A stretch of DNA of 64,000 nt from Malacoraja senta. Lineage: Eukaryota. Made by a program: the position numbers and the translations under genes. Positions 8,720 to 63,659 of the stretch are shown in pieces; the stretch's first letter is position 1; each line of letters starts with the position of its first letter. A model generated the notes under the pieces. It saw nothing but the letters and a program-made list of their open reading frames with translations, was not told the origin of the DNA and made no database searches. Where the stretch lies: NCBI GenBank assembly GCA_038087875.1, contig CM075994.1, forward strand, positions 9,426,001-9,490,000, written 5' to 3'.

Positions 8720-9075
8720 TTGGCGATGGTGAAATACCATTTTGGAGTAATTCTGGATATCACAGACACGCATGCACGCAGACAAGATAAGTGTTTTAGT
8801 AATATACTAGAAAGTGGGGTTTTTGAAAACTGATAAATATCTGACGGTAATGAGTTGAACCTGTAACTGGGCCACGATGTGCTGGAACCATACTTCAGTT
8901 TGTGACGCCCAGAAAACGGGCAGCTTTAGTGAGACTGACTTTTGCTGGGCCGGGGTTTTGAAAAGTATTAAATGTCAATATCTTGTAAAATATACCATCA
9001 ATCTGAACGAAACTTGACACAGGACAATGGTGAGTAAGGTGGTATTTTAGTGCTATTGTATACCATTTTGGAAAC
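8720..9075 (-). mobile_element. Fragments of Helitron family A, minus strand
   Basis: Reverse complement CTAG|TATATTACTAAAAC...TCTTG at ~8817 and the CCACCTTACTCACCATTGTCCTGTG body match the family A units at 18014 and 29187. Confidence 0.65.
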
Positions 9076-10857: not shown

Positions 10858-11933
10858 CTGTACATTGAGAACAAAACAGATGAGGTTGTGTGAGAGACTC
10901 CTGTAGCTCGTTCTGCTGCTGCTCTGAAAACGAGCAACTCCTTTCAATAAACATAGAACAGTACCGACACAAAATGCTGGAGTAACTCAGCGGGTCAGGC
11001 AGCCTCTCTGGAGAAGAGTGTAGGTGATGTTTTGGTCGAGACCCTCGCTCACCCAAGTGGTTGTACTGGCTTGTAAGTCGTCTAGTTGAGTCTCATTGTC
11101 TGTAACTCGTTCTCTCCCAACCCACAGCTAACAATGGCCTCTTTCCTCTATCATCTTAACTTTTTTGCATAATATTCATTCATCTATCTTCAATCTATAT
11201 ATTACTTAAGCTCTCATCTTGTTTGTTTGGATGTCTGCGTGGGAGTGAGACACTGAAATTACACCAAAACGGTACACGATAACGCTACAATCTTGGACCA
11301 CCTAACTCACAATTGTCTTGTGGTGTGTTTTTATCAAGTTTCGTTCAGATTTATGTTATATTTCACAAGTTATTCACATTTAAAACTTTACAAAATCCAG
11401 TTTGACAAAGAATAGTAAGATTAAACGAGAACTTACCAGTTGGAAGTTTGATCTTTATTTTATGAGGAGTTACGATGAGCGATTACGTGAAGAAGGCCGT
11501 CAACCCGCATGCACATCAATCTTCAAAGCAGCGGTGTGAAATCACAGATAACAGTTGTTGAACTAACATAGTAAGATTAGAGATGACTAGAACTACCAGA
11601 TGATCTTTATGATACGAGGGTTGGGAGCGGAGTGCACGTAATCGCTCATCGTAACTCCTCATAAAATAAAGATCAAACTTCAAACTGGTAAGTTCTCGTT
11701 TAATCTTACTATTTTACTTCGGCGTCACGTGAGTGACTACGTGAATATTTTAAAGCTCTGTGATTTCATGCCGTGGAAACGAGTCCATGCGTCACACACT
11801 GCATCAGTTGACCAGGATGAGTGAAAATAATTAATGCATACAGACATGACATAGATACAAAATGCTGATACTTTAATAATCAAAGAAAATAATAGTGACC
11901 CCTCTCACCCAGGGGGAAACTATAAAACAGAAC

Positions 11934-12990
11934 CTAAAATAGAATTAGCAAAAGTTTGTTATAAAACCTTTGGTACGTCAGTTCATTAGACCATCCTGCA
12001 GCCGCTAGAATGTGGTCGAGAGGGACATCTATATCCCTCACTGCTGAAGTAGATGCAGCCCTGGTGGAATGAGGTTTAAAAGTGTCAGTGTCCACTCCTG
12101 CACATGCCAGCACCTGTTTTATCCATCTTGAAATGGTCTGCACTGTAACCTTCCTATGAGGTTTAGTGTAGCTGATGAATAAGGATAATTCCGAGCCTCT
12201 GAGGCTCCTAGTGACCTTAATGTATTGTAGTATGTGAGAAACCACACACAACCGTAGGTCTAAGGGGTATGCCATAAAAATTAATTTGAGCCCCGACACC
12301 CCTGTCTGCTCTGCTTAATTAAATCATAAACAAAATTGGTGATGTTGTCAAAAGATGAAACCATGCTGTCCAGTCTAAGTTTATTTAACGTCTGGACCCG
12401 TTGTGCTGAAACCAGCGCCATGAGCATGACCACCTTGAGAGTGAGATTAGGCAGAGACAGAGATGAAGCTGGAGCCCCCTGGCGAAGCGTGAGTACCATG
12501 CTCACATCCCATATCTGTGAATATCTGGGCATAGGGGGGTAGAGTTAAAAATGCCCTTCATAAATCTGGTTATTAAGGGGTGAGATCCGACAGTGTGGTT
12601 CCCTGACCCCAGCCATAAGTAAGATGATAATGCACTCCTAGCACTATTTATGGCACTATAACTGAGTTTCTGATCGTAGAATAGACTTCTAAAAAAAAAA
12701 AAAAACTGGAGAGTCAAATGCAACGAAAATTTCGTTCTAGGTGCACTGTGTATAGGTGTATATCTGAATGACAATAAAGTTTTCATTCATTCATTCATTC
12801 AAAGGAACTCCAAAACATCCGTAATGGAAGCCGTGCCATACGGAATTTTCGAGAGAGAGCAGTACATCTCCCATTTCCTTATATGAGAGATGTACTGTTT
12901 CTGGGTGCTCTTCCTCCAGGCCGCAGTGATCACATCAACCATACAATCTGAAAGTCCGAGCCCCAGGAACGGTCTCCTCAGAATCTTCAA
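11934..12990 (-). pseudogene. DIRS tyrosine recombinase, frameshifted and interrupted
   Basis: Motifs SAQRVQTL, FKPHSTRAAS, AAGWS..TYQRFY; SAM-like N-terminal part (AWRKSTQKQY, SYSAINSARSALS). Confidence 0.9.
12690..12800 (+). mobile_element. Short retroposon 3'-tail insertion in the DIRS YR gene
   Basis: A-run, CAACGAAAATTTCGTTC...CTGAATGACAATAAAG and (TTCA)n tail; interrupts YR coding continuity. Confidence 0.7.
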
Positions 12991-14945
12991 ACCAATAAAT
13001 TGATTCGGTCATGAAGAGGATGGTTTTCCCCTGTCACAGGATGAACCAGCAGATTTCTGCTTTTGGGGACAGCTATAAAAGGCTGTGTAATCATACCTAG
13101 GACGAGTGGGAACCAATGCTGTGTGGGCCAGTCTGGTACTACCAATATGCCAGAGGCGGAGTCTTGCTTGATCTTGGCCAAGCATCGACTGATGAGGCAA
13201 AATGGGGGAAAGGCATACAAGAACTTCCCACCCCAGTGTAGCGAGAATGCATCTACTGCTACTGCCCCTGGGTCTGGTTCCCATGAAACGTAATTTGGTA
13301 ACTGATGATTTAGTCTAGATGCAAACAAATCAATATCCGGTACGCCATACCGAGCGACAATGTCGTTAAACACTTCATGATTCAACATCCATTCTTTGTT
13401 GTCATTGAATTTCCATGACCTGGTGTCCGCCACCATATTATATCTACCTGGTAAGTAGATAGCTGTAACCCAGATGTTTCTCGTAATAAACCAGTGCCAA
13501 ATAAGGTTAGACAATTTATCACAGGATACAGACTTAATTTCACCCGTGATTAATTTATGCCACCGCTGTAGTGTTGTCAATCTGAAGTTGAACATGCACA
13601 TGATGCATATTGCTACAATAAGCCTTTAGCCCATAGAGTGCTCCCAACAACTCTAAGTAGTTAATACCATGTGACTGAAGAATTGATGATTCCTGCATAT
13701 TCCATCTGCCACCGCAGCTTGAGACGATGTTGGTAGCACCCCAACCTAGAGCACTAGCATCAGTTTGTAGGATACCTGATGGTGTATCAACTAAAATTGT
13801 ACTGGAGCAATGCCGAATTGTAACTCAGCAATGGCTTCAGCTGGCAACCGCATAGGTCTACCGAAGTGACCTTTAATAAGTTTGAGTGCCTGCTCCTTTG
13901 CACGTTGTAAGTTTTGGTAGGGCGAAGGGCCGAACTGAGCAGCTGGGAAAGAAGCCGCTAATTTGCCAATTATACTAGCCACATGTTGGTTCTTAACAGT
14001 GAGATTGCTACAGGCTTCAATTAATTCTAGTTGCTTGCCCCAAGGCAGAGTCACTGACATGTGAATAGAGTTAATGGTGAATCTCAAATAATCAATTACT
14101 CTAGATGGTGCCAATTTGGATTTAACTGGATGGATGAGGAACCCCAATCTCTCAAACATGAGTTTAGTAGCTGACACAGATAATTCAGCTAATTTCATAG
14201 TTTTCCCTATGATTAGGATGTCATCCAAGTATGCCATGACAATATGATTCTGTGCCCTGAGTAGCCCCAGGACTGGTTTTAGCAATTTAGTGAATAGTCT
14301 GGGGGCTGAGGTTAACCCATTAGGCAATGCTTTTAACTGCCACAGTTGCCCCATCCAGCTAAACTTAAAATATCTCCGGTGGTCCCCATGAATGGCCACT
14401 GAATAATATGCATCTTTGAGGTCGATGCATGCCATATAACATCCCTTGGAAATCAGTTGTTTGGCAGTAGCAAAGTTTTCCATTTTGAAGTGTTTATACT
14501 GCACACAGGTGTTACACTCAGTCAAGTCAAGAATAATTCGGCATCCTCCATCCTTCTTTTGCTTAATGAATATATTGGACACAAATTGGTGAGACTCATG
14601 ACTCAACATCTCAATTACCCCTTTTTTGTGTAAAGATTTGTTTTCAGCTTGCGCATCCGCACACTCCTGTTGTGAAGGAACAAATGTGCGGTTCGGTGTA
14701 TGCTGTGTGAGTGGAGGCGAATTTAAAAGGAACTCAATTTGGAAACCTTGTATACTGTGCAGTATAAACGGATCTGATGTTATCCAATGCCATTCATTCA
14801 AGATAAATTGTAATCTCCCCCCAACTTGTAACTGATCCATAGACAATGTGTTACGCAAACAACCAGACTCACTTACCTCAATGGTTATCGGCGGAATGGT
14901 GTTTGTTTCTGCCCCCGAGGTCTGGGGGCTGTTGGAGGGCGCCAT
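12987..14945 (-). pseudogene. DIRS pol: reverse transcriptase, RNase H and N6-adenine methyltransferase-like domain, frameshifted
   Basis: IDLKDAYY, LPNGLTSAP, AYLDDILI; ILQTDASALGWG near 13740-13775; DLFASRLN and YAFPPF. Confidence 0.93.
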
Positions 14946-16110
14946 CCGCGCATCTTGAATGTGGACCGGCTTGGGCCTTGCCCTAAAAAAGGTCTCTGTG
15001 CCTGGTGTTCGTGCTGCCCACCATATCCGGCGAACCGTCTGGTGTTGAGAGGATAGGGGTACGGCCGCCGGAAAGATGAAGTCTTGGAAGGTGTTGGGAC
15101 CTTCATAAGCCTGACCGCTTTAGCCTCATCATCCAGCTCCCTGACCTGCTTTGGCAGATCTTCACCAAACAGGAGGTTTGGTGGTTGGATGTTCCCGGCC
15201 TTGCACAATGCTGCAAATTTGGGGTTCAGAGCAGGACGGATGGCATTCTTACAAAGGCAATTTATCTCAAAATGTGCATTGCACATTAATGCCATGGCGT
15301 CCTGTTGAACATCAGAGAGGGGCCCCCCATCCACCGACCTGGCAAAGGCCGTGATGCCTGAGGCAAGTAATCTTAACATTTTTTGTAGTTTTACCTCCTG
15401 GGCTTTGACGCCCCCTCCAATGTAACCCCAGATGGAGTGATTTACTGCCGGGACATTCAATGAGGCACAGTTTGCTGGGGTATGGTATTTGGTGGTGGTT
15501 TCCTCCATGGCCTGATCTTGGAGCTGGTGAGAGGCCAGGTAATGAATGCTCATGGCTAAATCCTCTCCCAGCGGTTCCCGTTAGGGAAGGTATAGCAAAT
15601 TTGGATGCCATGGGGGGTATTTCCGAATCTTGCCCTTCATGCCTAGAAGTATGCTCCCCAGGTGTGCCTCCGTACTTTGAGTCAGTGTAGAACTGACCTC
15701 GTATGCTCCCCTCCTCAGGGGGGGGGGACATTGTGCAGCCCTGAGACAGGTGCCGCTGCCGCGGGCTCTCTAGAATACCCGGGCTCAGATAGCTCCCTCC
15801 TTTGGAGTATATCACTTTGGAGCAACCTCTCCATTAGGTGCTCCATGTGGGTCAGTTGCCCAAAGACGCTGCCCATAGGAGGAGGAGAATCCTCCTGGCC
15901 CAACTCTTCTGAGTCCAGGGGCCTGACAGACTTCTTGGTGGCTTTCCTCCCCAGCGGGGTAGCCAAGGTGCTTTCTATCGGCACCAAGTCTGTAGCCGCT
16001 GGCTCCACTGCCAGCGACCCGGAAGGCGAAATTGGTGGCCACCCGCTACCCGCAGGCTCGCGGTCTTCAGTAGCCGGTTTCCCTGCGGCCCGCCTCTTCA
16101 CCTTAGACAT
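14885..16110 (-). pseudogene. DIRS gag-like ORF1, frameshifted
   Basis: ORFs 15715-16110 and 14885-15553 (P.NC..L.VP.VN..IW, LLFGEDL) lie upstream of and overlap the RT ORF. Confidence 0.75.
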
Positions 16111-16856
16111 AGTCTCCGCAAAGTTCGAATACTGTCTGTAAGTAGAGTAAATGAACCTTGAGCAACGATCTCAAAGAGAGTATAAGCACTTACCTGGGGG
16201 GTTTTAAACTTACCGCTGGAAGGAGCGACGCGCCCGCCAGGCAGTCGTTGCGCAATGCGTTAGTAATGACGCGCATGCGGGTTGACGGCCTTCTTCCACG
16301 TAATCACTCACGTGACTCTGAAGTAAAATCAGCGGTGGCAGTTACACCTATGACATCACAATGGGATTTCATTCATATAACTTGCCTGTGAGCAGTGTTC
16401 CAGCAGCTTCCACCTCCATGAGGGTAGGGAGGGAGTGAGATTTAAAAAAACAACCGGTTTTAATCAAATACCTTGGGTTTCATTTAAAAAAACATCATGG
16501 CTTTGACTGTGCGTGTGGTGGAATAGGGGAGAGGTTTCATTTACAAAAAAAAATCGACATTTTCATTGTGGGGGGTGGGATGGGTGGGAGGGGAGTCTGT
16601 TGATTGGCTCCAGGGAGCGCCGACAACACCCTCCACCCACGTGGGGCCAATTGATTGCCACAGGGGAGCGCAGACTGAGGGTAGGGGAAAGAAGAGGGGA
16701 GGGAATGCTGAGGGATAAGGGGAAATGAGACGCTGTTGAGGGCTATGTGTGAGTGGTGGAATATTGAGTTGGGGGAACGGTTCCGTTGGGGGAATGGATG
16801 TGTGGTGGAAGATTGCGTTGGGGGAATGGGGCCCAATGGGTCCCACTGGTCTAGTA

Positions 16857-18013
16857 TCTATCTATATACTTAAAAGTCTAATCTTGACCACTTCCTGTTT
16901 GCGCTCTATAATGATTTAGAAAAAACGCTACCACGTACGGCTGTGGTTTTTGGCTGTCGTACTCAGAGTCCCCTCCGCTCATCAGGTGCCGAGGATTTTT
17001 TTCCATAGATGAAAAATAAAAGAGTTATTAGTGTTTAAAAAATGTTGAGATTCTCTTTCCTTTCAACCACGCCCCGAAGGCCACGCCTCTTCTGGTGGGA
17101 GGGGGAGGGGCTATAAACCCGGAAGTGTGGGCGTGGCTCAGTCTCTGCAAGATGGGTGAGGGAGAGGACATGACTCTCTGTCTGAGCTGTGAATCAACTG
17201 AACACACTGAATGTCTACTGAACTGTGAGGTTTGTGGTGTTTTGTGGAGTTTCATGCGGGTTTATGACGGTTTTATGGTGGTTTCACCCTGAATTTGAAT
17301 TTGCTTGCCTTGCACCCTGCTTGAAATGGTATGAAACTGCACTTGAATTTGGTGGCCCTGCACCCTGCTTTAAATGGTATGAAACTGCACTTGAACTTGG
17401 TTGCCTTGCACCATGCTTGAAATGGTATGAAACTGCACTTGAATTTGGTGGCCTCGCACCCTGCATGAAAAGGCATGAAACTGCATTTGAATTTGGTGGC
17501 CTTGCACCCTGCTTGAAATGGTATGAAACTGCACTGGAATTTGGTGGTCTTGCACCCTGCTTGAACTGGTATGAAACTGCATTTGAATGTGGTGGCCTTG
17601 CACCCTGCTTGAAATGGTATGAAACTGCATTTGAATTTGGTGGCCTTACACCCTGCTTGAAATGGTATGAAACTGCATTTGAATTTGGTGGCCTTGCACC
17701 CTGCTTGAAATGGAATTTCAAGAAATAGCCGTGAATCAACTGTCAGCCCACCAGCCGTGAGTGAGTGAGCTGCCAGCACACCAGGCTTGAGTGACTGAGC
17801 TGCCAGCCCAATAATCCATTCGGCCCACAATATCCATACTAGCCCTCTGGAAGCAAGTCCCTTCAGCCCACAACACCCATACTAGCACTCCAGAATGCCC
17901 CCCCCCCCCCCCACTGGCCACCAATATTGGAATTTGTGGAGAGGTGGAATATTGCATTGGGGGACCTTCCCTCTCATGTGAACATGGGACCCAACGGGTC
18001 CCACTTAGTCTAG
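16857..18013 (+). mobile_element. Non-autonomous Helitron, family B, unit 2
   Basis: 5' TCTATCTATATACT; 3' perfect hairpin GGGACCC-AAC-GGGTCCC, then ACTTAGT-CTAG|T. Confidence 0.8.
17290..17720. repeat. 48-bp minisatellite, ~9 copies, inside Helitron unit 2
   Basis: Unit GCACCCTGCTTGAAATGGTATGAAACTGCA(C/T)TTGAATTTGGTGGCCTT; 16-aa periodicity in the ORF track. Confidence 0.95.
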
Positions 18014-18977
18014 TATATTACTAAAACTCTCATCTTACTTGTCTCTATGCGCGTGTGTGTGTGTGTGTAATTATGATCACGGAACTACGCCAAAACGGTA
18101 CACAATAGCGCTAATAGATTTTGCACCACCTTACTCACAATTGTCCTGTGGTGGTTTGTATCAAGTTACGTTCAGATTGATGTTATATTTCACAAATTAT
18201 TCCACATTTTTTAATTTAAAAAATCCAAATTTGAGAAACAATTCTTCCCTCTGCAGCTATGACTTCACAATGGGATTGTAACCATACCAGCTACAATGTT
18301 GCAATCCCGGGACACTCAGTCCTGACAGCACTAGCAAGTGCAATTGCAAGCTACAATTAGGCTGTGGGCCGAGGAGCTTTATTCTGGTGTTTCGTGACCC
18401 AAATCACGGAACTACATGAAATTTTCGCATATTGTGTAAAAATATTATATAAATCATCCCTGAAACTCGTCAAGAACAAAACTTGCACATTTTTATTAAA
18501 TTAGAGAAAAAACGGAAAATCTTTGGGTATTTTTAGTCCAATCAAAGCACGTTTAACACGGACGCCAGTTGGCCAATCACGCTCTTTGTTTCAGGCTGGC
18601 TAGGCAGGGAGCACACAACATGGCTGAGAGGACTTCACTGATGCCTGTTTTACTGGAGTTTCTGATGAAGGTTCTTTCTAGTTCTGTGGAATACATGTCG
18701 TGGAAACTTGCAGCAGGGTCATTGAATTTAGTGAGAAAAGCATTAAGAAGTCTGAAGAATGTGCAGCTAAGTGGATAGAAGTGGAAGAAAGTCTTGAAAG
18801 CAAAGTCCCTGCTGAGATGCTGCAACACGAAGTCGTGAAACCAGTGAAACATTGTGAATCAATGAACTGAAAGGTAAGATCTAAAGTCTGAATTTATGAA
18901 AATTAATCTGTATGGACTTTAATTAATTTAATTGCACCCTTTTATAATGTGAAAAAATGAGATTTGGAGGCTGTACA

Positions 18978-19098
18978 TTCACTCATTCATTCATTCATTC
19001 ACTCATTCATTCACTCATTCATTCACTCATTCATTCACTCATTCATTCACTCATTCACTCACTCATTCATTCACTCATTCACTTATTCATTCATTCAT
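18978..19098. repeat. (TCAT/TCAC)n microsatellite
   Basis: Directly visible. Confidence 0.95.
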
Positions 19099-19894
19099 GA
19101 AGTTGAAGGCCTAAACTATGTGTATCCATAACAAGATAAATTAAACATTTTCACTAATGCCAGCTTGTTGGAGTGTAATAAGTCTTTAACATCTAATCTC
19201 GGAGCTGCCTGCGATAACTTACCGAGTACAAGTGCTCCGATCGCGGGGCCTAGGTACTTAACATAGTGAAGCCGCGGTCTCAATTAAGAAGCGGCCGATT
19301 CGCGAACGCGGAGCCGCGGAGTGTGTTTGGATCATCTCCGCGGGGGGGGGGGGGAAGGCTGTACATAGTGCCGTCCGTAGAGGCCGCTTCCAGGCCCCGA
19401 CCACGGGAGAAAAACGGACGAATATTCATTGCACTTTAAAGGCTTCCATTGAAGTGAGAAATGGTCAGAAATGGCTGATGTTTATGTAGAAATGAATTGG
19501 TGTATGTGAACTTGAACTTGAATTAATTTATCTATGGTAGTAACAGTGTTATTCTCATTAACATTAAGAAGAGGTTGAAATTTTATGAATTGAAGTCTAT
19601 GCAGACTTAATGACTATGAGATGTTTTTTTTTGTAGCCTCTGCCTGACCCTCCACTTGAACTTGAACTAACTTATCAATGGGCATCAAAACTTATCAAAA
19701 GACTTGGAATCTGATGAAGAATATTCAGATGAAGATCAGATGTAATGTAAACAAATAAATTGGGGAAATAAATGATTATATAAAGTTTTATTTTAATGTC
19801 GATCGTTTCACTGTTTATTTGGTCAAATTATTTAAACAATGAGTGAATTAATTATGACAATGGCGTGCTGGTGAATGACAGTGCAACAGTCCAC

Positions 19895-20182
19895 CAACCC
19901 ATCCACACATACATACATACACAGATACACACACACATCCATCCATACGCACACTTCCATGCATGCACACACACACACATACATGCACACATACATCCGC
20001 ACACACACATCCACACATACATCCGCACGCAGACATACATATACACATCCATGCACACACATACATCCACACACATACATCCACACATACATCCACACAT
20101 CCAGCCATCCACACATACATATACACTTACATCCACACATCCACAGATACACGTTTGACAGGTATGCACAGACACACACACA
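19895..20182. repeat. Degenerate CA/CAT-rich simple repeat
   Basis: Directly visible. Confidence 0.9.
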
Positions 20183-20889
20183 AACTACAGATACTCAAAC
20201 AATGCAACACTTTTAGGGTTATTTTAGGTTAAAGGTAATAGCCCTCATTTGCAAAGGCACCATGGGGGGTCTCTAACATAAATATAGTCTCATTGTAGCT
20301 TAAAATGAATATTCATCGAGTAAACATCAGAGCATTCGATTCTTGGTCAGGATGTGACATTTACATCAGAAATAAGACAGGTCTCTTACAGATCTGTCCC
20401 CCAGCCTGGCACTGCCCCAGTCCCACATTGGCCGTTACCCCCATTCTCCCCACTATGGCAGTCAGTGGGGTTCAGTAAACGGGGGAACCTAGAGGCTCTG
20501 TCCTGGCCCTTTAATTAGGCAGGTTCATGAGCCCTTAAAACCTGGGACCTCTGCTGCAGTCTCATTAAATTTCCTATTAAAGCAACTGGAAGATGCCTTG
20601 CAGGACTGTCCCCCAGCCTGGAACTACCCCAGTCCCACTATGGCCGTGACCCCCACTCTGCACACTGGCAGTCAGTGGGGTTCAGTAAAGGGAGGAACCC
20701 ACAAGATCGGCCCTCACCCATTAATTAGACTGGTTCAGGAGCAGGACTTCTGCGACAGTGTCATTAAAAAAACACTCACAATTATATTCATCATATTATT
20801 TTTATATAATATAATATACTTAATTATATATGATTACAGTCATATTTACATAATATATATATATATATACCTATATATACCTATATATA

Positions 20890-20923
<34 letters not shown>

Positions 20924-21844
20924 TATAATAATATCTAGGTATAATAATATATAGTTTAAATGGACTGCAACACGGAAATAGGCTGCCTATGGTGTAATAT
21001 GGGATTGGCCACTAGATGGCGCTTACTTTCCCGATCTCATTTTCTAATTAGTTTAATTTATTAATGTGCAACTTTTGGCACTGACGAGTTATGACATCCT
21101 TCTCAATTATGTTTCATCTAAATCTGTGGAAAGTTTCATGTAGTTCCGTGACGTGGGTCACGAAAACCGATTTCTAGACATGGCCTGAATATTGCAATCC
21201 CTTATTTTTATATTCCTGGCAGCAAGTATATTCCTGGCAGCAAAGATTTTTTTTAAGTGCATTTGCATTTTTTTAAGTCACAGTACACTGAGCTCTGCCA
21301 GCTAGCAAGTGCAATTGCATTCTTTTAAAGTTTAAAATCAAGGAGGGTGAATAAGGCAAAATGAGCAGCCCCTGTGCAGCTGGAGGCTATGGGTGAATGG
21401 TGGAATATTGCGTTGGGGTAATGGGTTGCGTGGGGGACCAGGCCTCCCGTCTGACAGGGACCCTATGGGTCCCAATTGGTCTATTGTCTATCTATATTAC
21501 TAAAACTAAGATCTTGACCACTTTCTGACTTTCTGTTTCGTGATTTCCGAAAGAACGCCATCACTTACGGCCGTCATTTTTGGCCACCTCTCTCAGAGTC
21601 CCCCTCCGCCGGATTGAACTGGAGGATTTTTTCCATCGATGAAAAATCAGAGAGTTATTAATGTTTTTTTAAATGTCGCCATTCTCTCTGCTGCCCCCGC
21701 TGGCGGCAGGGGGGACTATAAAACCTGGAAGTGTCGTACCTCACTCAGTCTCTGCAAGATAGAGGAAGCGAGAGGGTCACGGCTCTCTGAGCTGCGAATA
21801 ACACTGAACGCATGTCTACTCGATGGTGAGTCCCCTGAATGTGG

Positions 21845-22045
21845 TTGTAAAGTGTTTGCCAAATTGTCTTGGCTTTTAAAAAGTTTTCACAAAATGGATT
21901 GGGTGTAAAGTGTTTGCCAAATTGTCTTGGCTTTTAAAAAGTTTTCAGAAAATGGCTTGGCTGTAAAGTGTTTGCCAAATTATCTTGGCTTTTAAAACGT
22001 TTTCAGAAAATGGATTCGTTGTCAAGTGCCAAATTGTCTGTCTTG
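21845..22045. repeat. ~58-bp tandem repeat (second array at ~26095-26300)
   Basis: TGTAAAGTGTTTGCCAAATTGTCTTGGCTTTTAAAAAGTTTTCAGAAAATGG recurs at a 58-bp period. Confidence 0.9.
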
Positions 22046-23319
22046 GTTTTTTTTAATGTTTTTTCGGATGGATAAAGCGTGAATAAACATTTTATTAGAT
22101 CAGGACTGTGTTTAATTGCAAAATTGGTGCTTATTCCGTGACTTCCGCTTAGTGGCAAGATGGTGCCGATGACGTCATTTCCGGTTAGCGCCAAGATGGC
22201 ACTGAGTGCGTCATTTCCGGTTCGTGGCAAGATGGCGCTGACTGCAGAAGCAGGGCTCGAAATTAGCTGTTGCCCGGGTGCCAATGACCACATAAAGTGC
22301 CGCCGGGCAATCTAAACGCCGAGTCATTTTGCCTGGCTTGGCACTGCAGATACTGGTTCATACCGAAGATAGACACAAAAAACTGGTGTAACTCAGCAGG
22401 TCAGGCAGCATCTCTGGAGAAAAGGATCGTGACGTTTCCTGTCGGCGACGGCTGTATTGCAGGGCAAAGATACGGGGTGTGGGGTGATGAAGTGTTGGAG
22501 CGAATGACGGGCCCCGCACAGCGGCAGCAGCGGCCGCGAGAGCGGCTCCACCTCGCCCTCCTCCCGCACCCCGCCCGCCCTGATAGTGGCCGCTGCTTGG
22601 AAATCCGCTAATGGCGCTTTCAAAACAAACCCTCCCGCACGCCGAGGCCGGGAGGAGGGAGAGAGGGGGAGGCCTCCTTCCGCCGTGTGAAGCAGCTGCA
22701 CCAACGATCCTATAGCGATAGGATCTGTGAGCTGCACCGCTCGGCCCCGCACCTCGCTGTTGGCTAGCGGAGAGGAGGCGGTGGCGAGGAGTTCCTAACA
22801 GCTTCCCCCTTAGGCGGCAGCACTTGGCGGTGGACAGGGATGGCCAAGGCAGCGGGGCGATGTTATCCGAGGAGCGCTGACCTTCCTTCCTCCCTCCCCA
22901 CCTCGCCCCTCTCTCTCTCTCTCTCTCTCTGTACGCCCTCTCCACCCCTCTTATCCTGAGACCCCTCCTCTCCATTCCACACTGATTCCCGCCTCTATTC
23001 AGTCCTCACTGACATCCCCTGTGCTCCCCTCCCCATCTACCCCCCCCCCAATCTATTCATCCTGCGTTGATCACCCTATCCACCTCGCATTGTTTCTCCT
23101 GCCACCCTCCCATCCATCTTACACTGGTCCCCCAATTCATCCTGTACTGACCCCCCCCCTTCCCATCCATCCTGCACTGCTCCCCCCACTCAAGAAGAAT
23201 GGGGGAACAGTCGGAAGAAGGGTCTCGAACCGAAAAGTTGCCTATTTCCTTCGCTCCATAGATGCTGCCTCACCCGCTGAGTTTCTCCACCATTTATGTC
23301 TACAACCATTCACCCTGTG

Positions 23320-23580
23320 CTGATTCACCCATTCATCCTGTACTGATCCCCAGCATCCATCCCATACTGAACCCCCCATTCATCCTGTACTGATCCCCTC
23401 ATTCATCCTGTAGTGATCCTCCATTCATCCTGCACTGACCCTCCGATCCACACTGAACTGACTCCCCACATTCATCCTGTACTGATCCCCACATTCATCC
23501 TGTACTGATCCCCACATTCATCCTGTACTGATCCCCACCCATCCATCCCGTACTGATCCCCCCATTCAACACCACTGACA
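23320..23580. repeat. ~22-27 bp minisatellite (ATTCATCCTGTACTGATCCCC)
   Basis: Directly visible tandem units. Confidence 0.9.
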
Positions 23581-24409
23581 TCCCCCGTGCTCTCCCCTCA
23601 CAATTTTACATACTCCAACCAACATGCACTAATTCCCCTGCCTCAATCCATCCATTCCGCACCGATTGCCTTCTCAACACCCCCCCCGCCATCTATCCAC
23701 CCCGCACTGATTCACACACACCCCCCCTCCCTGACCCTATTGTGCTGTAAATGTCTTCAGAGCGAACATTGACTATGTTTGATAACGGAATGCAATCAAA
23801 TGTGTTTTAATTCCCAATGTTATTATGTGTTTTAGTCCATAAAGATGGATTAATTAAATTGTGAACACGTGAAACAGTATTCGATTGACACGTTATTACA
23901 GAATTAATTTTATCAGCAAATCAATGCTCTTAATATGGAGTATCAGTACTGTCGTTATTTAATGAGCAACATTCACAACTATACGTTGGATTTATCCAGG
24001 TTTTACTTCTAGTCGGTCATATACATCACAAATTTGGTCAGGAGATATTTCAGTTGAAATTTTAACGTTAATTCTGAAGTGGGAATGATGGAAACAGCGT
24101 TTAGCAATAATTTTTTTTAAATCTAGTGCGTACAAACTGGGTATCTTCATTGCTGTTCACAACACGAACATCTAATCTGAATGTCCGGTAATGTGGCGTT
24201 TTGACACCTTTAAACATATTACCAAAAGAAGCAGTTATGTCCTTTGGCCATCTCTTGTCAGTTAGTGTAATGTTTAACCTGTCAGATGGGGATGGTCTGT
24301 TTTAACAGCTATTATCATAAAATGCCTTTAGAAGTTTCCATGCAACCTGTATATTTTGTTGTGGATAAATTATGTGGGAAGCGTGAGTGTTTCTGTGCCA
24401 ATAGCAATA

Positions 24410-25254
24410 GAGATTAGAGATTAGAGATTCCTTTATTTGTCATTCAGACCTTTCGGTCTGAACGAAATTTCGTTGCCTGCAGTCATACATATAATAATAA
24501 ATAACAAAACACACAATAAACACAAATTAACACCCACCACGGTGAGTTCACCAGGCACCTCCTCACTGTGATGGAGGCAAAAGTCTTAGTCTCTGTCTCT
24601 TCCCACTTTGTTCTTCCTCTGCGCTGAGGCGATCCAGGCTTCTGATGTTGTGACCCCGCCGGGTGATGGTAAGTCAATCCCGCGGCTGAATCCGTGCTCC
24701 GCGACGGGCCGGTTCAAACTCCGCGGCCCGGGGTGGCCGAAGCTGCCGAAGCTGCCGCCCTCCAGTCCAGCAGACGCAGCTGTAGTTGCGGGAGCTCCAG
24801 AAAAACAGGTCACCTACCTGTGACCTGCGAGCTCCCGACGATGTCGTCCACCGGGCCCGCGGCCGAGCCTCCGGATTCAGGTCGCCACCAGTGTCTTCGG
24901 TCGCCACCGCCGGAACGCCACCGCAGCCCCGAAGCCGGCCAGCCCCGCGCTGGTAAGTCCTGGCTCTGCCTCCGGAGCCTCGAGGTCGGTCGGTCGCAGT
25001 TGGAGTTGGAGGCCGGCAGCTCCGCCATTAGGCCTCGGCGCAGACGGAGGCAGAGAAGGGGGATATGACAAGTAAAAGTCGCATTCCCCCGAAGGAAGAG
25101 ACAAAAATCATGTTTCACCCCCCCCCCACCCCACACATACACAACCCAATAAACTAAAATTTAACTAAAACAGGACAATAGAAAACAACAAAAAAATTAA
25201 AAAACAGACGGACTGCAGGCGAGCCACTGCTGTTCGACAGCGCCGTCACTTCCG
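24410..25254 (-). mobile_element. Non-autonomous retroposon with GC-rich body and (CTCTAAT)n tail
   Basis: Minus strand starts CGGAAGTGACGGCGCTG and ends CAACGAAATTTCGTTCAGACC-GAAA-GGTCTGAATGACAAATAAAG plus tail; CAATA on both flanks. Confidence 0.65.
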
Positions 25255-25910
25255 CCAATAACGACCCATGCTATGGCCATGTCATGGTAATTTTCGGTCC
25301 TTCACAGAAAACATGCTTGCATCAATCTGTAGTGTGCACGGTTAAGCATATATGTTATCATGGTCCAGGATTTATTGACACAGGTTGATCATACACTGAA
25401 TAATCCAACCACATTTTTGTTTGGAAGTGGAAAGAACCAATAGAAATTGCATTAATTGCAATGTGTAAAAAGAGTTGAGATACTGTATTATAATTTTGCT
25501 GCATGTCATTGTGGTATATATCACGTCTTGATTGGTGAATATGTTTAGTTTGTGACTTTATTTGAAGGAGAAATAATATGTGAATGCTTCATTGAGCATA
25601 ATTCCGACTGGTAACTAACTACGCACTTCGTCCGAGCACATTATCGCACGCGTCAAGCAAACCATCTTAAATGACCACCTAAACTGTCAATTGGCAACCT
25701 AAAAAGCTGTCTAGGTTGCCCGGCTGGCAACAGGGAAAAAAAGTTGCGAGAGCCCTGCTTCAGAAGGCATACTGTAGATGTCGTTGAATAATTGTCTGTC
25801 TTGGTTTTTTAAATCGTTGCAACAGTCTTCGGATGGAGGCTTTAAACGTTTGAATCATTCGGTTTACACACTGTATGTTCACGACGTTCTGAAGTTACTA
25901 GGCATTTTAG

Positions 25911-25912
<2 letters not shown>

Positions 25913-26007
<95 letters not shown>

Positions 26008-26020
26008 CGCGCGTGCGCGC

Positions 26021-26051
<31 letters not shown>

Positions 26052-26067
26052 TGTGTGCGTGTGTGTG
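25913..26067. repeat. (GT)n/(GCGT)n microsatellite
   Basis: Directly visible. Confidence 0.97.
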
Positions 26068-26711
26068 GTTTTTTTGTTTTTGTTGAAAAAGTATTGGCTG
26101 TATAGTGTTTGCCAAATTGTCTTGGCTTTTAAAAAGTTTTAAGACAATGGTTTGGTTGTAAAGTATTTACCAAATTACCTTGGCTTTTAAAACCTTTTCA
26201 GAAAATGGATTGGTTGTAAAGTGTTTGCCAAATTGTCTTGGGTTTTAAAAAGTTTTCAGAAAATGGATTGGTTGTAAATTGTTTGCCAAATTGTCTGTCT
26301 TGGTTTTTTAAATCATTGCAACAGTTTTCAGATGGATAAAGCGTGAATAAACATTTTATTACATCAGGACTGTGTTTAATTGCAAAATTGGCGTTCATTC
26401 CGTGACTTCCGCTTAATGGCAAGATGGCGCCGATGACGTCATTTCCAGTTAGCGGCAAGCTGGCGCTGAGCGTCATTTCCGGTTCGTGGCAGGATGGCGC
26501 TGACTGCAGAAAGCATAGTGAAGACGTCGTTGAATAATTCAAGAGAGCTTACTGCTCTGTCTATGGTGAGTGTGTTTGTTGGACATTATTTAAAGCACGT
26601 TTTTGCTTCAGCAGCAGCAACCTCTACAGGAGTCTTTAAACGTTTGAATCATTCGGTTTACACACTGTATGTTTACCACGTTCTGAAGTTACTAGGCATT
26701 TTAGTATTGGT

Positions 26712-26935
26712 TGTGAGTGTGTGTGAGTGAGTGAGTGAATGTGTATGTGTGTGAGTCTCTGTGTATGTGTGTGTGTGTGTGTGTGTGTGAGTGTCTGTGT
26801 GTGAGTGTCTGTGTGTGTGTGAGTGTGTGTCTGTGTGTATGTGTGAGTCTGTGTGTGTGTGAGTCTGTGTGTGTGAGTGTGTGTGTGTGTGTGTGTGTCT
26901 CTTTGTGTGTGTATATGAGTCTGCGTGTGTGCGAG
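26712..26935. repeat. Degenerate (GT)n microsatellite
   Basis: Directly visible. Confidence 0.93.
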
Positions 26936-27354
26936 AGACATCTATCCTACTTCAGATTTCCAAAAGTGAAGAGAAATTAAAGTAAAGAGAAGCGAGCGCT
27001 GAAGGGACAAAAACAGCTAAAGTGTTTGGCGAACATTGGCCGTGCAGTTATCGAGATTGAAAATATTGGGAATTATCGCCTTTGCTCACTGCATTTCATC
27101 AACAATAATGCATTATTTGTGTTTTCTCTTGATTCCTTTGGTATCTGAAAAGTTTCAGAAGTGATAAATCTGGCTGTAAAATTTTAAAATCGCCCATGGT
27201 TCTGAAGTGGGTTTTACATGCAAAAAGAAAACACTTCTGACGCTAAATTTATCTTCCCCTCCGCCCTCTGGGCGTACGTGACCAGGAGCTATGTGTCGAA
27301 ACATGGCGTAATTTAATTGCGCAACTATAGAAACTTGCAAGGCTTACCTTTGGC

Positions 27355-28508
<1,154 letters not shown>

Positions 28509-29186
28509 TCCGATAGACCACGAGAGGCAATATCAGGAGACAGGACATGGAACTGATACGAGAATAGAGAAGTGACGCAAGAACAGAGATGTACAGAATA
28601 TAGATAGGTTCACATATGGCCATGTTGGGATATCAGCTGCCAATCAACAGTGTTCCATCCAGTGCAATGAGAGATCTTACATTGTTGTGAGGAGAGGGAG
28701 TGAATGGGGAAGGGAGCGAGTGGGGGAGGGGAGAGTGAAGAGGGAGGGAGAAGAGGGAGGGTGAAGAGGAGTGAGAGGGAGAGTTGGGGGATGAGGGGAA
28801 ATGAGCCGCGCCTGCGCAGTTGGGGGCTATGGGTGAGTGGTGGAATATTGCGTTGGGGGAACGGGTTACGTTGGGGGAAACGGGTTACGTTGGGGGAACG
28901 GGTTACGTTGGGGAAAACAGGTTACGTTGGGGGAACAGGTTCTTCATATTGAGTCCACACACATGATTAGAAGCTGTTCAGCCAGAGCTGAACACATTTC
29001 TCGGCATCTGCATACAAGGTTCTGCATACAAGGTGTCTGTCTTGTCGTCTCTTGTGCGCGGTGGTGGAAAGATTTGGTGGAAACAGGGCCGCGATGTGAA
29101 CGTTCTTTCCTTGACCCCGGGGGAACGGGTGAGTGGTGGATTTTTGCATTGGGGGAACGAGACCCAACGGGTCCCACTTGGTCCAG

Positions 29187-32100
29187 TACATTACTAAAAC
29201 TCATCTTGTTTGTTTGCCCAGATTGTACCTATATTTGCGCAAAAATGGTACACACTAGCAGTACAATTTTTGCACCACCTTACTCACCATTGTCCTGTGA
29301 TGTGAAAAAAAAGACTTTTGTTCAGATTGATGCCATCTTTTACAAGTTATTCGCGTTTAAATCTTAAAAAAAAACACTTAAAACCACCTGTCTGCCCCAC
29401 AGCAGTGATGCTCCCCACAATGACATCACAATGGGATCTCATTTACATATTGTCTGCTCCTCAGCAGTGATCCACCCACAATTGGGGAGGGACTCAAATA
29501 GAGAAAGCTATTAGACAGTGTGAGGCAGGAGGCAGAGAAGGAAAGCACTCAGACCCAACATGTAGGGGGGAAAGAAGAAAACAATAATAAACAGAGAATA
29601 AGAGGTGGTAGGGTTCTTAAATGGGTGAGCAGAGAAACAGAGGGGTGTAAAATGGGGGCGGAAGCAATAGGTAGCAAGATGAAAAGTAAAAGTGGCAGGC
29701 AGACAAATCGAGGGCAAAAATCAAAAAGGGCCACTTTTCAACATAATTATAAAAGGGGTAAGAGCGTTGTAAAAAGAAGCCTGAAGGCTTTGTGTCTCAA
29801 TGCAAGGAGCATTCGTAATAAGGTGGATGAGTTGAACGTGCAGATAGCAATTAATGATTATGATATAGTTGGGATCACGGAGACATGGCTCCAGGGTGAC
29901 CAAGGCTGGGAGCTGAACATCCAGGGATATTCAATATTCAGGAGGGATAGAGAGAAAGGAAAAGGAGGTGGGGAAGCGTTGTTGGTTAGAGAGGAGATTA
30001 ACGCAGTGGAAAGGAAGGACATTAGCTTGGAGGATGTGGAATCGGTATGGGTAGAGCTGTGAAAAACTAAGAGGCAGAAAACGCTGGTGGGTGTTGTGTA
30101 CAGGCCACCGAACAGTAGTAGTTGGGGATGGCATCAAACAGGAAATTAGAAATGCGTGCAACAAAGGTAAAACAGTTATAATGGGCGACTTCAATGTACA
30201 TATAGATTGGGTGAATCAAATTGGCTGGGGTGCTGAGGAAGAGGATTTCTTGGAATGTATGCGGGATAGTTATCTAAACCAACATGTAGAGGAACCAACG
30301 AGAGAGCAGGCTATTCTAGACTGGGTATTGAGTAATGAGGTAGGGTTAGTTAGCAGTCTTGTTGTGCGTGCCCCCTTGGGCAAGAGTGACCATAATATGG
30401 TTGAGTTCTTCATTAGGATGGAGAGTGACATAGTTAATTCAGAAACAATGGTTCTGAACTTAAAGAAAGGTAATTTGAGGGTATGAGACGTGAATTGGCC
30501 AAGATTGACTGGCAATTAGTTCTAAAAGTGTTGACGGTGGATATGCAATGGAAGGCATTTAAAGACTGCATGGATGAACTACAAAAATTGTTCATCCCAG
30601 TTTGGCAAAAGAATAAATCAGGGAAGGTAGTGCATCCGTGGATAACAAGGGAAATCAGGGATAGTATCAAAGCAAAAGATGATGCGTCCAAATTAGCCAC
30701 AAAAAGCAGCATACCAGAGGACTGGCAGAAATTCAGAGACCAGCAGAGGAGGACAAAGGGCTTAATTAGGAAAGGGAAAATAGATTATGAAAGAAAACTG
30801 GCAGGGAACATAAAAACTGACTGCAAAAGTTTTTATAGATATGTGAAGAGAAAGAGATTAGTTAACACAAATGTAGGTCCCTTGCAGTTAGAAACAGGTG
30901 AATTGATCATGGGGAACAAGGATATGGCGGACCAATTGAATAACAACTTTGGTTCCGTCTTCACTGAGGAAGACATAAATAATCTGCCGGAAATAGCAGG
31001 GGACCGCGGGTCAAAGGAGATGGAGGAACTGAGTGAAATCCAGGTTAGTCAGGAAGTGGTGTTGGGTAAATTGCATGGATTAAAGGCCGATAAATCACCT
31101 GGGCCAGATAGGCTGCAACCCAGAGTACTTAAGGAAGTAGCTCCAGAAATAGTGGATGCATTAGTGATTATTTTTGTCAAAATTCTTTCGGTTCTGGAGT
31201 AGTTCCTGAGGATTGGAGGGTAGCAAACGTAACCCCACTTTTTAAGAAGAGAGGGAGAGAGAAAACGGGGAATTACAGACCAGTTAGTCTAACATCGGTA
31301 GTGGGGAAACTGCTAGTCAGTTATTAAAGATGGGATAGCAGCACATTTGGAAAGTGGTGAAATCATTGGACAAAGTCAGCATGGATTTACGAAAGGTAAA
31401 TCATGTCTGACGAATCTTATAGAATTTTTCGAGGATGTAACTAGTAGAGTGGATAGGGGAGAACCAGTGGATGTGTTGTATCTGGACTTTCAGGAGGCTT
31501 TCGACAAGGTCCCACATAAGAGATTAGTATACAAACTTAAAGCACACGGTATAGGTGGTTCGGTATTGATGTGGATAGAGAACTGGCTGGCAAACAGAAA
31601 GCAAAGAGTAGGAGTAAACGGGTCCTTTTCACAATGGCAGGCAGTGACTAGTGGGGTACCGCAAGACTCAGTGCTGGGACTCCAGCTATTTACAATTTAT
31701 ATTAATGATCTGATTGAGGGAATTGAAGGCAACATCTCCAAGTTTGCGGATGACACTAAGCTGGGGGGCAGTGTTAGCTGTGAGGAGGATGCTAGGAGAC
31801 TGCAAGGTGACTTGGATAGGCTGGGTGAGTGGGCAAATGTTTGGCAGATGCAGTATAATGTGGATAAATGTGAGGTTATCCACTTTGGAGGCAAAAACAG
31901 GAAAGCAGACTATTATCTAAATGGTGGCCGATTAGGAAAACAGGAGATGCAGCGAGACCTGGGTGTCATGGTACACCAGTCATTGAAAGTAGGCATGCAG
32001 GTGCAGCAGGCAGTGAAGAAAGCAAATGGTATGTTAGCTTTCATAGCAAAAGGATTTGAGTATGGGAGCAGGGAGGTTCTACTGCAGTTGTAGAGGGTGT

Positions 32101-32940
32101 TGGTAAGACCACACCTGGAGTATTGCGTACAGGTTTGGTCTCCAAATCTGAGGAAGGACATTATTGCCATAGAGGAAGTGCAGAGAAGGTTCACCAGACT
32201 GATTCCTGGGATGTCAGGACTTTCATATGAAGAAAGACTGGATAGACTCGGCTTATACTCGCTAGAATTTAGGAGATTGAGAGGGGATCTTATAGAAACT
32301 TACAAAATTCTTATGGGGTTGGTCAGGCTAGATGCAGGAAGATTGTTCCCGATGTTGGGGAAGTCCAGGATAAGGGGTCACAGCTTAAGGATAAGGGGGA
32401 AATCTTTTAAGACCGAGATGAGAAAAACAATTTTCACACAGAGAGTGGTGAATCTCTGGAACCCTCTGCCACAGAGGGTAGTTGAGGCCAGTTCATTGGC
32501 TATATTTAAGAGGGAGTTAGATGTGGCCCTTGTGGCTAAAGGGATCAGGGGGTATGGAGAGAAGGCAGGTACGGGATACTGAGTTGGATGATCAGCCATG
32601 ATCATATTGAATGGCGGTGCAGGCTCGAAGGGCCGAATGGCCTACTCCTGCACCTATTTTCTATGTATCTATGTATCTAATTACATCAAAGTGGGTTCTC
32701 ATTTACATAAAATAAAAAAACACAGTAGCTTCCATCTCGCAATGACATCAAGGGCGATAGGGAGAGGAAAGGGATTATGGAGGGAGGGAGGGAGTTACTG
32801 AGGGTAGGGGAAAGGAGAGGGTGGGAGAGGTTAGGGAGGGAATAGGGAGGGGAGAAGGAGAGGGGAAAAAGGCTGTTAGGGGCTATCGGTGAGTGGTGGA
32901 ATATTGCGTTGGGGGAACGGGCCCGACGGGTCCCACCTGT
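29187..32940 (+). mobile_element. Non-autonomous Helitron, family A, unit 5 (contains a CR1)
   Basis: Starts TACATTACTAAAACTCATCTTG with family A body; ends GGAATATTGCGTTGGGGGAACGGGCCCGACGGGTCCCAC; terminal CTAG not preserved. Confidence 0.65.
29483..32678 (+). mobile_element. CR1 LINE with near-complete degenerate ORF2 (APE endonuclease + RT), 5'-truncated
   Basis: [38 protein letters not shown]; (CTATGTAT)n tail; AATT on both flanks. Confidence 0.95.
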
Positions 32941-33364
32941 TTGTTCTATATCTACATCTATTTTTCTCATTTTCCTTTCACCTGACTCTCAGTCTGAAGA
33001 AGGGTCTCGACCCGAAACGTCACCTATTCCTTCTCTCCAGAGATGCTGCCCATCCCGCTGAGTAAATAGACGGGACTGAACCTTGGAGAGGAGGGAGAGG
33101 GAGTTGGGGAGGGAGCGGATGAGGGAAAGGGAGAGATGGGTGTAGTGGGAATGGGGAAAAGGGAAGGGGTGAGGTGGAGGAGAGAGGGGGAGGGGAGAGA
33201 GGGAGGGGAGAGGGGAGGGAGAACAAATACTCATTGATATTTTATTTAATGGTACAACAAACTGAACAAATGAATTCAAACTTGTATACGATAAAATCTT
33301 AACTGAACACATAACTTCATAATTTGCATTCATATTTCTACAAATATGATATTTGTATTATATT

Positions 33365-39241: not shown

Positions 39242-40040
39242 CTAGACTAAGTAGGACTCGTTCGGTCCCATGTTTACACGGGAGCATTGGTCCCCGAACG
39301 CAATATTCCGCCTCTCCGCCACTTCCAATATTGGTGGCCAGTTGGGGGGAGGGGGGGAGGGGCGAAGGGACTGGTTTCCAGAGGGTAGTATGGACTGGTG
39401 GCCTGGCAGCTCAGTCACTCAGGCCTGGTGGGCTGGCAGCTCAGTCACTCAGGGCTGGTGGGCTGGCAGATCAGTCACTCAGGGCTGGTGGGCTGGCAAC
39501 TCAGAAACTGCCAGAAATTCTGCCCAAAAGAGGTGAGTGACTGTGAGAGAGAAGGGGGAGAGGGTGGAGAATCAATTTTTGACATTTTTCATCTTTTTCT
39601 ACAGATCACAGCAATGAAGGAGGAAAGGCTATCCTGGCCTGGATCGCACAGGGAGCCAATGAAGGGAGGGAGAAAAATACTGGGGTGAGGTTTAATACTT
39701 ACTGGGGGAATACTTACTGATGGGCCTTAGGGAGCTCCTGGGCTAGTACAGGCCTGATGGGCCAAAGGGACTCTTTAAAAAAAATCAGAGTGAAATCTCA
39801 GTGAAAGGCACTTTTTCTGGATTTTTCCTGGCCTGGCACGGGCCTTTTTGTCCAAAATGCTCCCCCTGGGCTAATGTGGGCATTTTTGGAAAGAGGGACT
39901 GGTTCCTGGACTAATAGGGGCCTTGTAGGCTGAAATGAGTGGTTTCAGGTAGGCCAAAGGTGGGCTGGCAATTCACTCACTCATGGCTGGTGGGCTGGCA
40001 GTTGACTCGCGGCTGGTGGGCTGGCAGTTGACGCACGAGG
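39242..40040 (-). mobile_element. Helitron-derived element, 3' part, minus strand
   Basis: Reverse complement ends GGGACCG-AAC-GAGTCCT-ACTTAGT-CTAG; GGCTGGTGGGCTGGCAG repeats are the inverse of 17740-17810. Confidence 0.65.
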
Positions 40041-63645: not shown

Positions 63646-63659
63646 TATATATGGTCAAT

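What the first reader, a model, noticed from the sequence alone, without database searches (positions are those of the whole stretch)
11183..32940. 21.7-kb head-to-tail array of alternating non-autonomous Helitrons (A-B-A-B-A)
Seen: five same-orientation units. Each ends in a GGGACCC-NNN-GGGTCCC-type hairpin; units 1-4 continue ~6-7 nt to CTAG or a variant (16854, 18013, 21484, 29186) with the next unit's TATAT(T)ACT start immediately after, while unit 5 (~32940) lacks the CTAG. Units 1, 3 and 5 share one 5' body; units 2 and 4 share another. The same CTAG|TATATTACT junction occurs on the minus strand at ~8817. Both outer flanks look like halves of one Penelope-derived repeat split at A|T. Known: TC...hairpin-CTAG, no TSD and an A|T target are Helitron hallmarks. 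Inference: these families target each other's ends or move as composite rolling-circle multimers, building a landing pad for other TEs.
Basis: partly seen in the sequence, partly recalled or inferred. Interest (0 to 1): 0.7.

Follow-up and report, generated by a model that had tools for sequence, protein, structure and literature searches.

The report
Stack of five old Helitron transposons
Five old, gene-less rolling-circle transposons sit end to end because later copies most likely landed inside the first few bases of earlier ones, a real but largely known kind of pile-up.

Summary
The array is real. There are five same-strand units, each with a 3' hairpin, and their 5' bodies alternate A-B-A-B-A. 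Units 1-4 end in CTAG or a one-base variant.

In three other runs, this 3' end is a very abundant repeat. Its depth falls about tenfold right after CTAG, and in the one run whose loose ends there are shown the flanks are unrelated. That is a Helitron1-type boundary, and joining to a neighbour is not obligatory.

A rolling-circle multimer is not supported. None of the 4 inner joints is CTAG|TC, and the two B units differ in interior and 3' end. Both B-to-A joints lack A's first TCTA, while both A-to-B joints carry a spare TCTA. That fits each B inserting at an ordinary A|T four bases inside a resident A's 5' tip.

A retrotransposon and a LINE later landed inside, and unit 3 holds another insert. 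Adjacent and self-inserted Helitrons are already described in maize and Fusarium. No genome was available, so genome-wide adjacency, empty sites, the Penelope split and an autonomous partner remain untested.

The parts
10965..11182 (.). Left flank. 10965-11045 is an inverted copy of the short repeat that also forms the right flank. The label 'Penelope-derived' is recalled and comes from no call.
   Evidence: 10985-11045 vs 33063-33001, 81%; no intact copy in the window
11183..11193 (+). 11-nt linker of TCTA-like pieces before unit 1; possibly displaced 5' tips of units 3 and 5 (inference)
11194..16854 (+). Unit 1: A 5' body starting TC, X-type 3' end with hairpin 16828-44 and CTAG; about 740 nt without the insert
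11411..16329 (-). Nested retrotransposon with reverse transcriptase, a weak tyrosine-recombinase match (below cut-off) and split inverted repeats. The label DIRS-like is from my knowledge.
16855..16860 (+). Linker TA + TCTA; the TCTA is read as the displaced first four bases of unit 3
16861..18013 (+). Unit 2: B 5' body starting TC, 48-bp tandem array 17295-17713, 30-bp repeats, Y-type 3' end with the best hairpin (z -3.1) and CTAG; 1153 nt
18014..21484 (+). Unit 3: A 5' body lacking TC; 3' end G-rich with a Y-like last 55 nt; hairpin 21457-73; ends CTAT
18358..21177 (.). Insert in unit 3: a separate repeat with a 37-nt inverted motif near both ends and its own small hairpin-CTAG at 21177 (followed by A); right limit approximate, family not identified
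21485..21490 (+). Linker TG + TCTA, in the same register as 16855-16860
21491..29186 (+). Unit 4: B 5' body starting TC, 58-bp and 36-bp repeats present twice (21842-22249, 26095-26511, 88%), 1.15-kb GT run, inner X-type 3' segment without hairpin (28689-28940), final hairpin 29159-75 and CCAG; probably composite
29187..32939 (+). Unit 5: A 5' body lacking TC; X-type 3' end with decayed hairpin 32918-34; CTAG lost
29480..32679 (+). Nested LINE (endonuclease plus reverse transcriptase), 96% over 1327 nt to 5316-6639; left limit approximate
32940..33063 (+). Right flank, starts with T; includes a short repeat found many times in the window
8735..9071 (-). Rearranged A-type fragments outside the array; CTAG remnant (8810-8807) without hairpin directly before an A start at 8806
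39242..39581 (-). Y-type 3' end ending CTAG at 39242, followed by 12 nt like the start of unit 2 but no body
45379..46266 (-). Element with an A-body remnant (46266-46223) and a Y-type 3' end ending CCAG at 45379, followed by T and no family start

Best explanation
The array is a stack of separately inserted, long-dead non-autonomous Helitron1 (HLE1) elements of at least two 5' types and two 3' types, once moved in trans by a RepHel transposase that is not in the window.

Shown: the termini, the joint letters, the structural differences between units, and the nested inserts.

Inferred: every element began with TC. Each B went in at an ordinary A|T site between the TCTA and the TATATTACT of a resident A. 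That leaves TCTA in front of B and a TC-less A start behind B's CTAG. The upstream A elements went in a few bases further left in the same TA-rich tip, which would explain the TA in the linkers and the TCTA-like pile at 11183-11193.

Also inferred: the 5' tip is favoured because it is an AT-rich run of AT steps that the enzyme normally binds and nicks. Whether this is true recognition or plain AT preference is open. Later retrotransposons landed inside the stack.
For: - 2 of 2 B-to-A joints lack TC, and 2 of 2 A-to-B joints carry a spare TCTA in the same register.
- Unit 1, the only A not preceded by a B, keeps TCTA directly before TATATTACT.
- B2 and B4 share only about 360 nt, and the pairs 2+3 and 4+5 share no interior.
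- An A-body remnant is paired with a Y end outside the array, so ends are modular.
- In runs X1, X15 and X2, depth falls from 2.84M to 0.26M, 1.03M to 0.10M and 1.14M to 0.086M across 18013/18014. In X2, 159, 130 and 105 contigs have long unrelated AT-rich loose ends behind 18014, 18015 and 18016 (agreement 0.41).
- No TSD or TIR was found.
- AT richness alone does not give 5 of 8 in this window (P 2.5e-5 against the 326 most AT-rich A|T sites).
- Precedent: adjacent Helitrons by consecutive insertion (PMC2267711), self-insertion at 5' ends (PMC5148889), and A|T plus AT-rich 3' preference in Helraiser (PMC4778049).
Against: - The parse rests on 4 joints in one selected window.
- The true 5' end of solo A and B copies was not seen. 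One search showed 18 of 1870 loose-end rows, none at the 5' side of 18014.
- No empty site was seen.
- The 11-nt left linker fits the expected remnants only with several small changes.
- Outside the array only 1 of 3 ends precedes a start with a body, and that one lacks a hairpin (P 0.006-0.16 by null).
- 0 of 24 listed contig pieces bridge the unit 2-3 joint by the tool's 31-letter rule; two X1 pieces have 28 letters on the left. Recurrence elsewhere is hinted at, not shown.
- Sequence identity alone cannot separate independent copies from an old local duplication.
Confidence: 0.68

Rival explanations
1. A B-A pair formed once, became a composite element (B's 5' end, read-through of B's hairpin, A's 3' end) and spread as a unit; the array is A plus two such composites.
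For: Both joint types repeat in exact register. End bypass and compound Helitrons are documented (PMC4778049; PMC4224331). Two X1 contigs carry hairpin, CTAG and A body together, with 28 letters on the left side.
Against: Pairs 2+3 and 4+5 share only the B and A 5' bodies and short 3' motifs, and B2 and B4 have different inner repeats and 3' types. In X2 hundreds of Y-type ends run into unrelated flanks.
Confidence: 0.15
2. An ancient local tandem duplication (unequal crossover) of an A-B or B-A block, later overwritten by insertions and deletions.
For: Same orientation and strict alternation. Pairwise identities of 70-82% are what two old copies of one family could show. Unit 4 holds an inner duplication.
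Against: Unit 2's 3' part is closer to dispersed minus-strand copies (85-87%) than to any unit of the array. There is no shared interior or shared nested insert between the supposed duplicates.
Confidence: 0.09
3. One rolling-circle multimer of a composite A-B circle integrated in a single event.
For: Head-to-tail order. Tandem arrays from rolling-circle copying are reported for bats and plants (as cited in PMC5876387).
Against: Helraiser circles have precise CTAG|TC joints, and 0 of 4 joints here do. Units of a multimer would start identical, but these differ in structure.
Confidence: 0.04
4. The units are not Helitron1 elements but another repeat class whose ends only resemble TC and CTAG.
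For: No autonomous partner or RepHel frame was found, Dfam and Repbase could not be consulted, and the 5' boundary was not seen in other copies.
Against: Hairpin plus CTAG followed by T and unrelated flanks, TC starts in units 1, 2 and 4, and no TIR or TSD match the HLE1 definition read in PMC11417382.
Confidence: 0.04

Closest known systems
Non-autonomous Helitron1/HLE1 elements (definition from passages of PMC11417382, and PMC4778049)
   Same: TC start, short 3' hairpin then CTAG, T after the 3' end, no TSD or TIR, no coding capacity
   Different: The hairpin lies 6-7 nt before the last four bases. No autonomous partner was identified. Two units have lost TC at their joint.
[quoted passage not shown]
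   Same: Different elements joined head to tail by consecutive insertion rather than by multimer formation
   Different: The maize joint is exact CTAG|TC between two elements. Here there are five units, and the joints are shifted a few bases into the 5' tip.
Self-inserted FoHeli elements of Fusarium oxysporum and the Metarhizium triple (PMC5148889, passages and section 16)
   Same: Insertion at or into the 5' end of a resident Helitron, giving multiple termini and composites
   Different: FoHeli are Helitron2-like with inverted repeats. These are HLE1-like, in an animal-type repeat landscape.
Maize helA elements with multiple termini from nesting (PMC3288121, passages)
   Same: Preference to insert near or inside other Helitrons; inner 3' ends with damaged CTAG (here CTAT, CCAG and a hairpin-less inner end)
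   Different: No captured gene fragments were found here, and the nesting is at the very tip rather than in the interior.
Helraiser circle junctions and tandem arrays in bats and plants (PMC5876387, passages)
   Same: Head-to-tail order
   Different: Those joints are precise CTAG|TC between copies of one element; none here is.

Membership tests
Helitron1/HLE1, non-autonomous | 5' end starts with TC | tested here: inconclusive
   TC is present in 3 of 5 units (1, 2, 4) and absent at the joint in units 3 and 5, where it is explained only by inference. The boundary was not seen in other copies.
Helitron1/HLE1, non-autonomous | 3' end CTRR with a short hairpin just upstream | tested here: met
   CTAG in 2 of 5 units, one-base variants in 2, lost in 1; hairpin motif in 5 of 5. 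Family-wide depth falls after CTAG in 3 of 3 runs with data.
Helitron1/HLE1, non-autonomous | Insertion between A and T | tested here: inconclusive
   T follows 4 of 4 intact ends in the array, and A precedes the TC at 11194, 16861 and 21491. No empty site was seen.
Helitron1/HLE1, non-autonomous | No target site duplication | tested here: met
   No exact duplication of 2-12 nt at the outer limits of the array. Old age could hide a short one, and single units could not be tested against flanks.
Helitron1/HLE1, non-autonomous | No terminal inverted repeats | tested here: met
   The longest inverted match between the first and last 60 nt is 4-6 nt in 5 of 5 units.
Helitron1/HLE1, non-autonomous | Dispersed multi-copy family with a shared boundary and unrelated flanks | tested here: met
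   24,587-29,516 contigs were laid in each of 3 runs; unrelated loose ends lie behind 18014-18016 in X2. Shown for the Y-type 3' end only.
Helitron1/HLE1, non-autonomous | Autonomous RepHel partner with the same termini | not testable with these tools
   No genome is held. There was no Helitron Pfam match among 77 frames scanned, 71 of them over the array.
Rolling-circle multimer (tandem Helitron array) | Precise CTAG|TC joints | tested here: not met
   0 of 4 inner joints.
Rolling-circle multimer (tandem Helitron array) | Units are copies of one monomer | tested here: not met
   B2 and B4 share about 360 nt only, and their 3' types differ.
Helitron2/HLE2 (Helentron) | Short terminal inverted repeats and a T|T target | tested here: not met
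   No inverted match above 6 nt; A precedes the TC starts.
   No intact copy in the window. The 3 loci from motif scans were chance matches of 19-24 nt. Only the inverted likeness of the two flanks supports a single element.

The most novel reading that the evidence does not exclude
In this lineage the RepHel enzyme actively picks resident 5' termini as targets and cuts at a fixed shifted position, TCTA|T. That site differs from the element's own TCTAG|T end by one base. Ordered multi-family stacks would then build up genome-wide, and the spare TCTA pieces would record the order of insertion. This would be sequence-directed self-targeting rather than loose clustering.
Probability: 0.3. Interest if true: 0.55.

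Novelty: new member of a known kind. Interest (0 to 1): 0.3.

Why it matters
As it stands this is repeat archaeology: a tidy example of Helitrons piling onto each other, useful for curating these families. A tool that pairs the first TC with the last CTAG would call one 21.7-kb element. If the fixed TCTA|T register holds genome-wide, it would turn the known tendency of Helitrons to land near each other into a testable target-choice rule for the transposase. It would also explain how 5' and 3' ends get swapped between families.

Tried and rejected
- The own genome is not held, so no genome-wide mapping was possible.
- Scans for the 3' end pattern found 0 matches in viral contigs and 0 in metagenome contigs.
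- Scans for a left-flank motif found 1 and 2 loci, all chance matches of 19-24 nt.
- The run search found 20 of 22 rows holding part of 16300-19300, none with half of the words (best 0.36). I laid 4 of the 22. X22 gave 0 reads, which is no test.
- Protein-level searches meant to read the flanks of other copies failed. One gave 1 hit matching 12 of 30 residues, not followed up; the other gave no candidate.
- Rfam found 0 matches in 8000-47000.
- Look-ups of earlier findings by place, sequence and words found nothing; one search listed 5 findings from other genomes.
- Rejected: a rolling-circle multimer (joint letters, unit structure); HLE2 (no inverted ends); the ~8807 junction as independent proof (no hairpin, rearranged); sequence identity as proof of separate subfamilies (two old copies of one family could be about 80% alike).
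Full report
Setting. The window is almost wholly repeats: LINEs with endonuclease and reverse transcriptase, a Tc1-type transposase and simple repeats. No genome is held for it. The repeat landscape reminds me of skates and rays; that is recalled and comes from no call.

Observation. Five hairpins of the stated type lie on the + strand at 16828-44, 17986-18002, 21457-73, 29159-75 and 32918-34. Units 1-4 end 6-7 nt further on in CTAG, CTAG, CTAT and CCAG. Unit 5 runs into its flank at 32939 without CTAG. Units 1, 3 and 5 share about 220 nt of 5' body plus a short inner motif. Units 2 and 4 share another body of about 360 nt. Of 7 hairpin-bearing ends folded, 2 stand out from shuffles (z -3.1 and -2.1), as expected of decayed copies. 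About half of the span is later cargo: a 4.9-kb retrotransposon in unit 1, a 2.8-kb insert in unit 3 and a 3.2-kb LINE in unit 5. The native A units are about 550-740 nt. No Helitron protein family matched any of 77 frames scanned, 71 of them over the array.

The joints. Joints 2-3 and 4-5 read CTAG or CCAG directly into TATATTACT or TACATTACT, with no TC. Joints 1-2 and 3-4 read CTAG, TA, TCTA, then TCTATA, in the same register (the second with two substitutions). Unit 1 keeps TCTA directly before TATATTACT and is preceded by 11 nt of TCTA-like pieces. So 0 of 4 inner joints is the precise CTAG|TC of Helraiser circles (PMC5876387, passages; PMC4778049, passages). The simplest parse (inference) is that each B inserted at an ordinary A|T between TCTA and TATATTACT of a resident A. 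The missing TCTA of units 3 and 5 then sits in front of units 2 and 4. The upstream A elements would have gone in slightly further left in the same tip. The left linker fits this only with several small changes, so the order among the A units is speculative.

Not one multimer. B2 has a 48-bp inner array and a Y-type 3' part that is 85-87% like two minus-strand copies elsewhere in the window. B4 has 58-bp and 36-bp repeats and X-type 3' parts. Pairs 2+3 and 4+5 share no interior. A minus-strand element at 45379-46266 joins an A-body remnant to a Y end, so 5' and 3' parts are modular and the A-B-A-B-A label applies only to 5' bodies. Identity by itself does not prove separate subfamilies.

Evidence from other runs. 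20 of 22 listed runs hold part of 16300-19300, none more than 0.36 of the words, so they probably come from relatives. I laid 4 of them on 17720-18950 at 80% likeness. X22 gave no reads. X1, X15 and X2 gave 29,516, 24,587 and 25,200 contigs. Summed depth falls about tenfold across 18013/18014 in all three. In X2, 159, 130 and 105 contigs have long loose ends behind 18014, 18015 and 18016 with agreement 0.41, meaning unrelated AT-rich flanks. This supports CTAG|T as a true boundary and suggests that most Y-type ends are not followed by an A start. Depth is no copy number, and only 18 of 1870 loose-end rows and 24 of 79,900 pieces were shown. None of the 24 bridges the joint by the tool's 31-letter rule. 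Two X1 pieces (17986-18202 and 17986-18193) have 28 letters on the left, which hints that the joint recurs. The 5' boundary was not visible in the rows shown.

Chance. 5 of 8 recognisable 3' ends in the window are followed within 10 nt by a start with a family body. P is 1e-12 against all A|T sites and 2.5e-5 against the 326 most AT-rich ones outside young inserts. The window was picked for this and the events are not independent. Outside the array it is 1 of 3 (P 0.006-0.16), and that case, near 8807, lacks a hairpin. A second, at 39242, is followed by 12 nt like unit 2's start but no body.

Flanks. No TSD of 2-12 nt and no TIR were found. The left flank holds an inverted copy of the right-flank repeat (81%), which is compatible with one split element. 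No uninterrupted copy was found in the window or in two scans. The Penelope label and the A|T split remain untested.

Mechanism. Shown elsewhere for Helraiser: insertion at A|T with an AT-rich 3' side, nicking at the 5' TC, no local hopping, and bypass of the 3' end (PMC4778049, passages). Inferred here: the TA-rich 5' tip of a resident offers several A|T steps in a sequence the enzyme is built to bind, so new copies land in it. Read-through of inner hairpins can then swap ends between families. Whether this is active recognition or passive AT preference cannot be settled from one window.

What is known. Adjacent head-to-tail Helitrons formed by consecutive insertion are described in maize (PMC2267711, passages). 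Nesting that yields multiple termini is described in PMC3288121 (passages). Insertion at or into 5' ends is described in Fusarium and Metarhizium (PMC5148889, passages and section 16). Compound elements are described in bats (PMC4224331, passages), and short Helitron-derived tandem arrays in Xenopus (PMC12001565, passages). The preference to insert near other Helitrons I saw only as a citation of Yang and Bennetzen 2009 (PMC12477314, passages). The HLE1/HLE2 definitions are from PMC11417382 (passages). Eight searches (listings only, apart from the papers named) showed no paper on such stacks in cartilaginous fishes or on a fixed TCTA|T register. The library lacks most subscription journals, I read no supplements, and Dfam and Repbase were not available, so the families may already be catalogued.

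Verdict. A real stack of old non-autonomous HLE1-type elements, most likely built by serial insertion into resident 5' tips (0.68). It is a new member of a known kind; interest 0.3. The bolder reading, fixed-register self-targeting genome-wide, has probability about 0.3 and would merit about 0.55.

Noticed in passing
window 17112-17144 and 21717-21751 (+): Both B bodies keep a TATA-like word, an ETS-like word 7-8 nt later and an initiator-like word 26-28 nt after the TATA (labels recalled). This may be a retained or captured promoter.
   Followed up: partly
window 22125-22241 and 26418-26503 (+): The 34-36-bp repeats in unit 4 contain YY1-like, CRE-like and ETS-like words (labels recalled).
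   Followed up: no
window 18358-21177: The insert in unit 3 has a 37-nt inverted motif near both ends and its own hairpin-CTAG. In X1 (2 contigs) and X15 (1 contig) a joint runs from 18015 to 18358, so Y-type ends may also abut this family elsewhere.
   Followed up: partly
window 8333-9071: A-type fragments occur in permuted order around a 120-nt duplication (8536-8648 and 8835-8954) inside a 166-aa frame with no Pfam match; it looks like a local rearrangement.
   Followed up: partly
window 50857-51010 (+): A decayed match to the X-type sub-terminal motif and a CTAG followed by TATCT lie just before a 1-kb C-rich tandem array; possibly another related remnant.
   Followed up: no
window 46342-50293 and 55858-59825 (+): Two copies of an AT-rich LINE, 93.5% alike over 4 kb; the second has a 989-aa endonuclease-RT frame and an upstream 354-aa frame.
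   Followed up: no
window 62427-63425 (+): A 332-aa Tc1-type transposase frame, with 219-nt inverted repeats at 62055-62271 and 63433-63651 (96%).
   Followed up: no
window 27357-28507: A 1.15-kb almost perfect GT run inside unit 4; its length may be an assembly effect.
   Followed up: no
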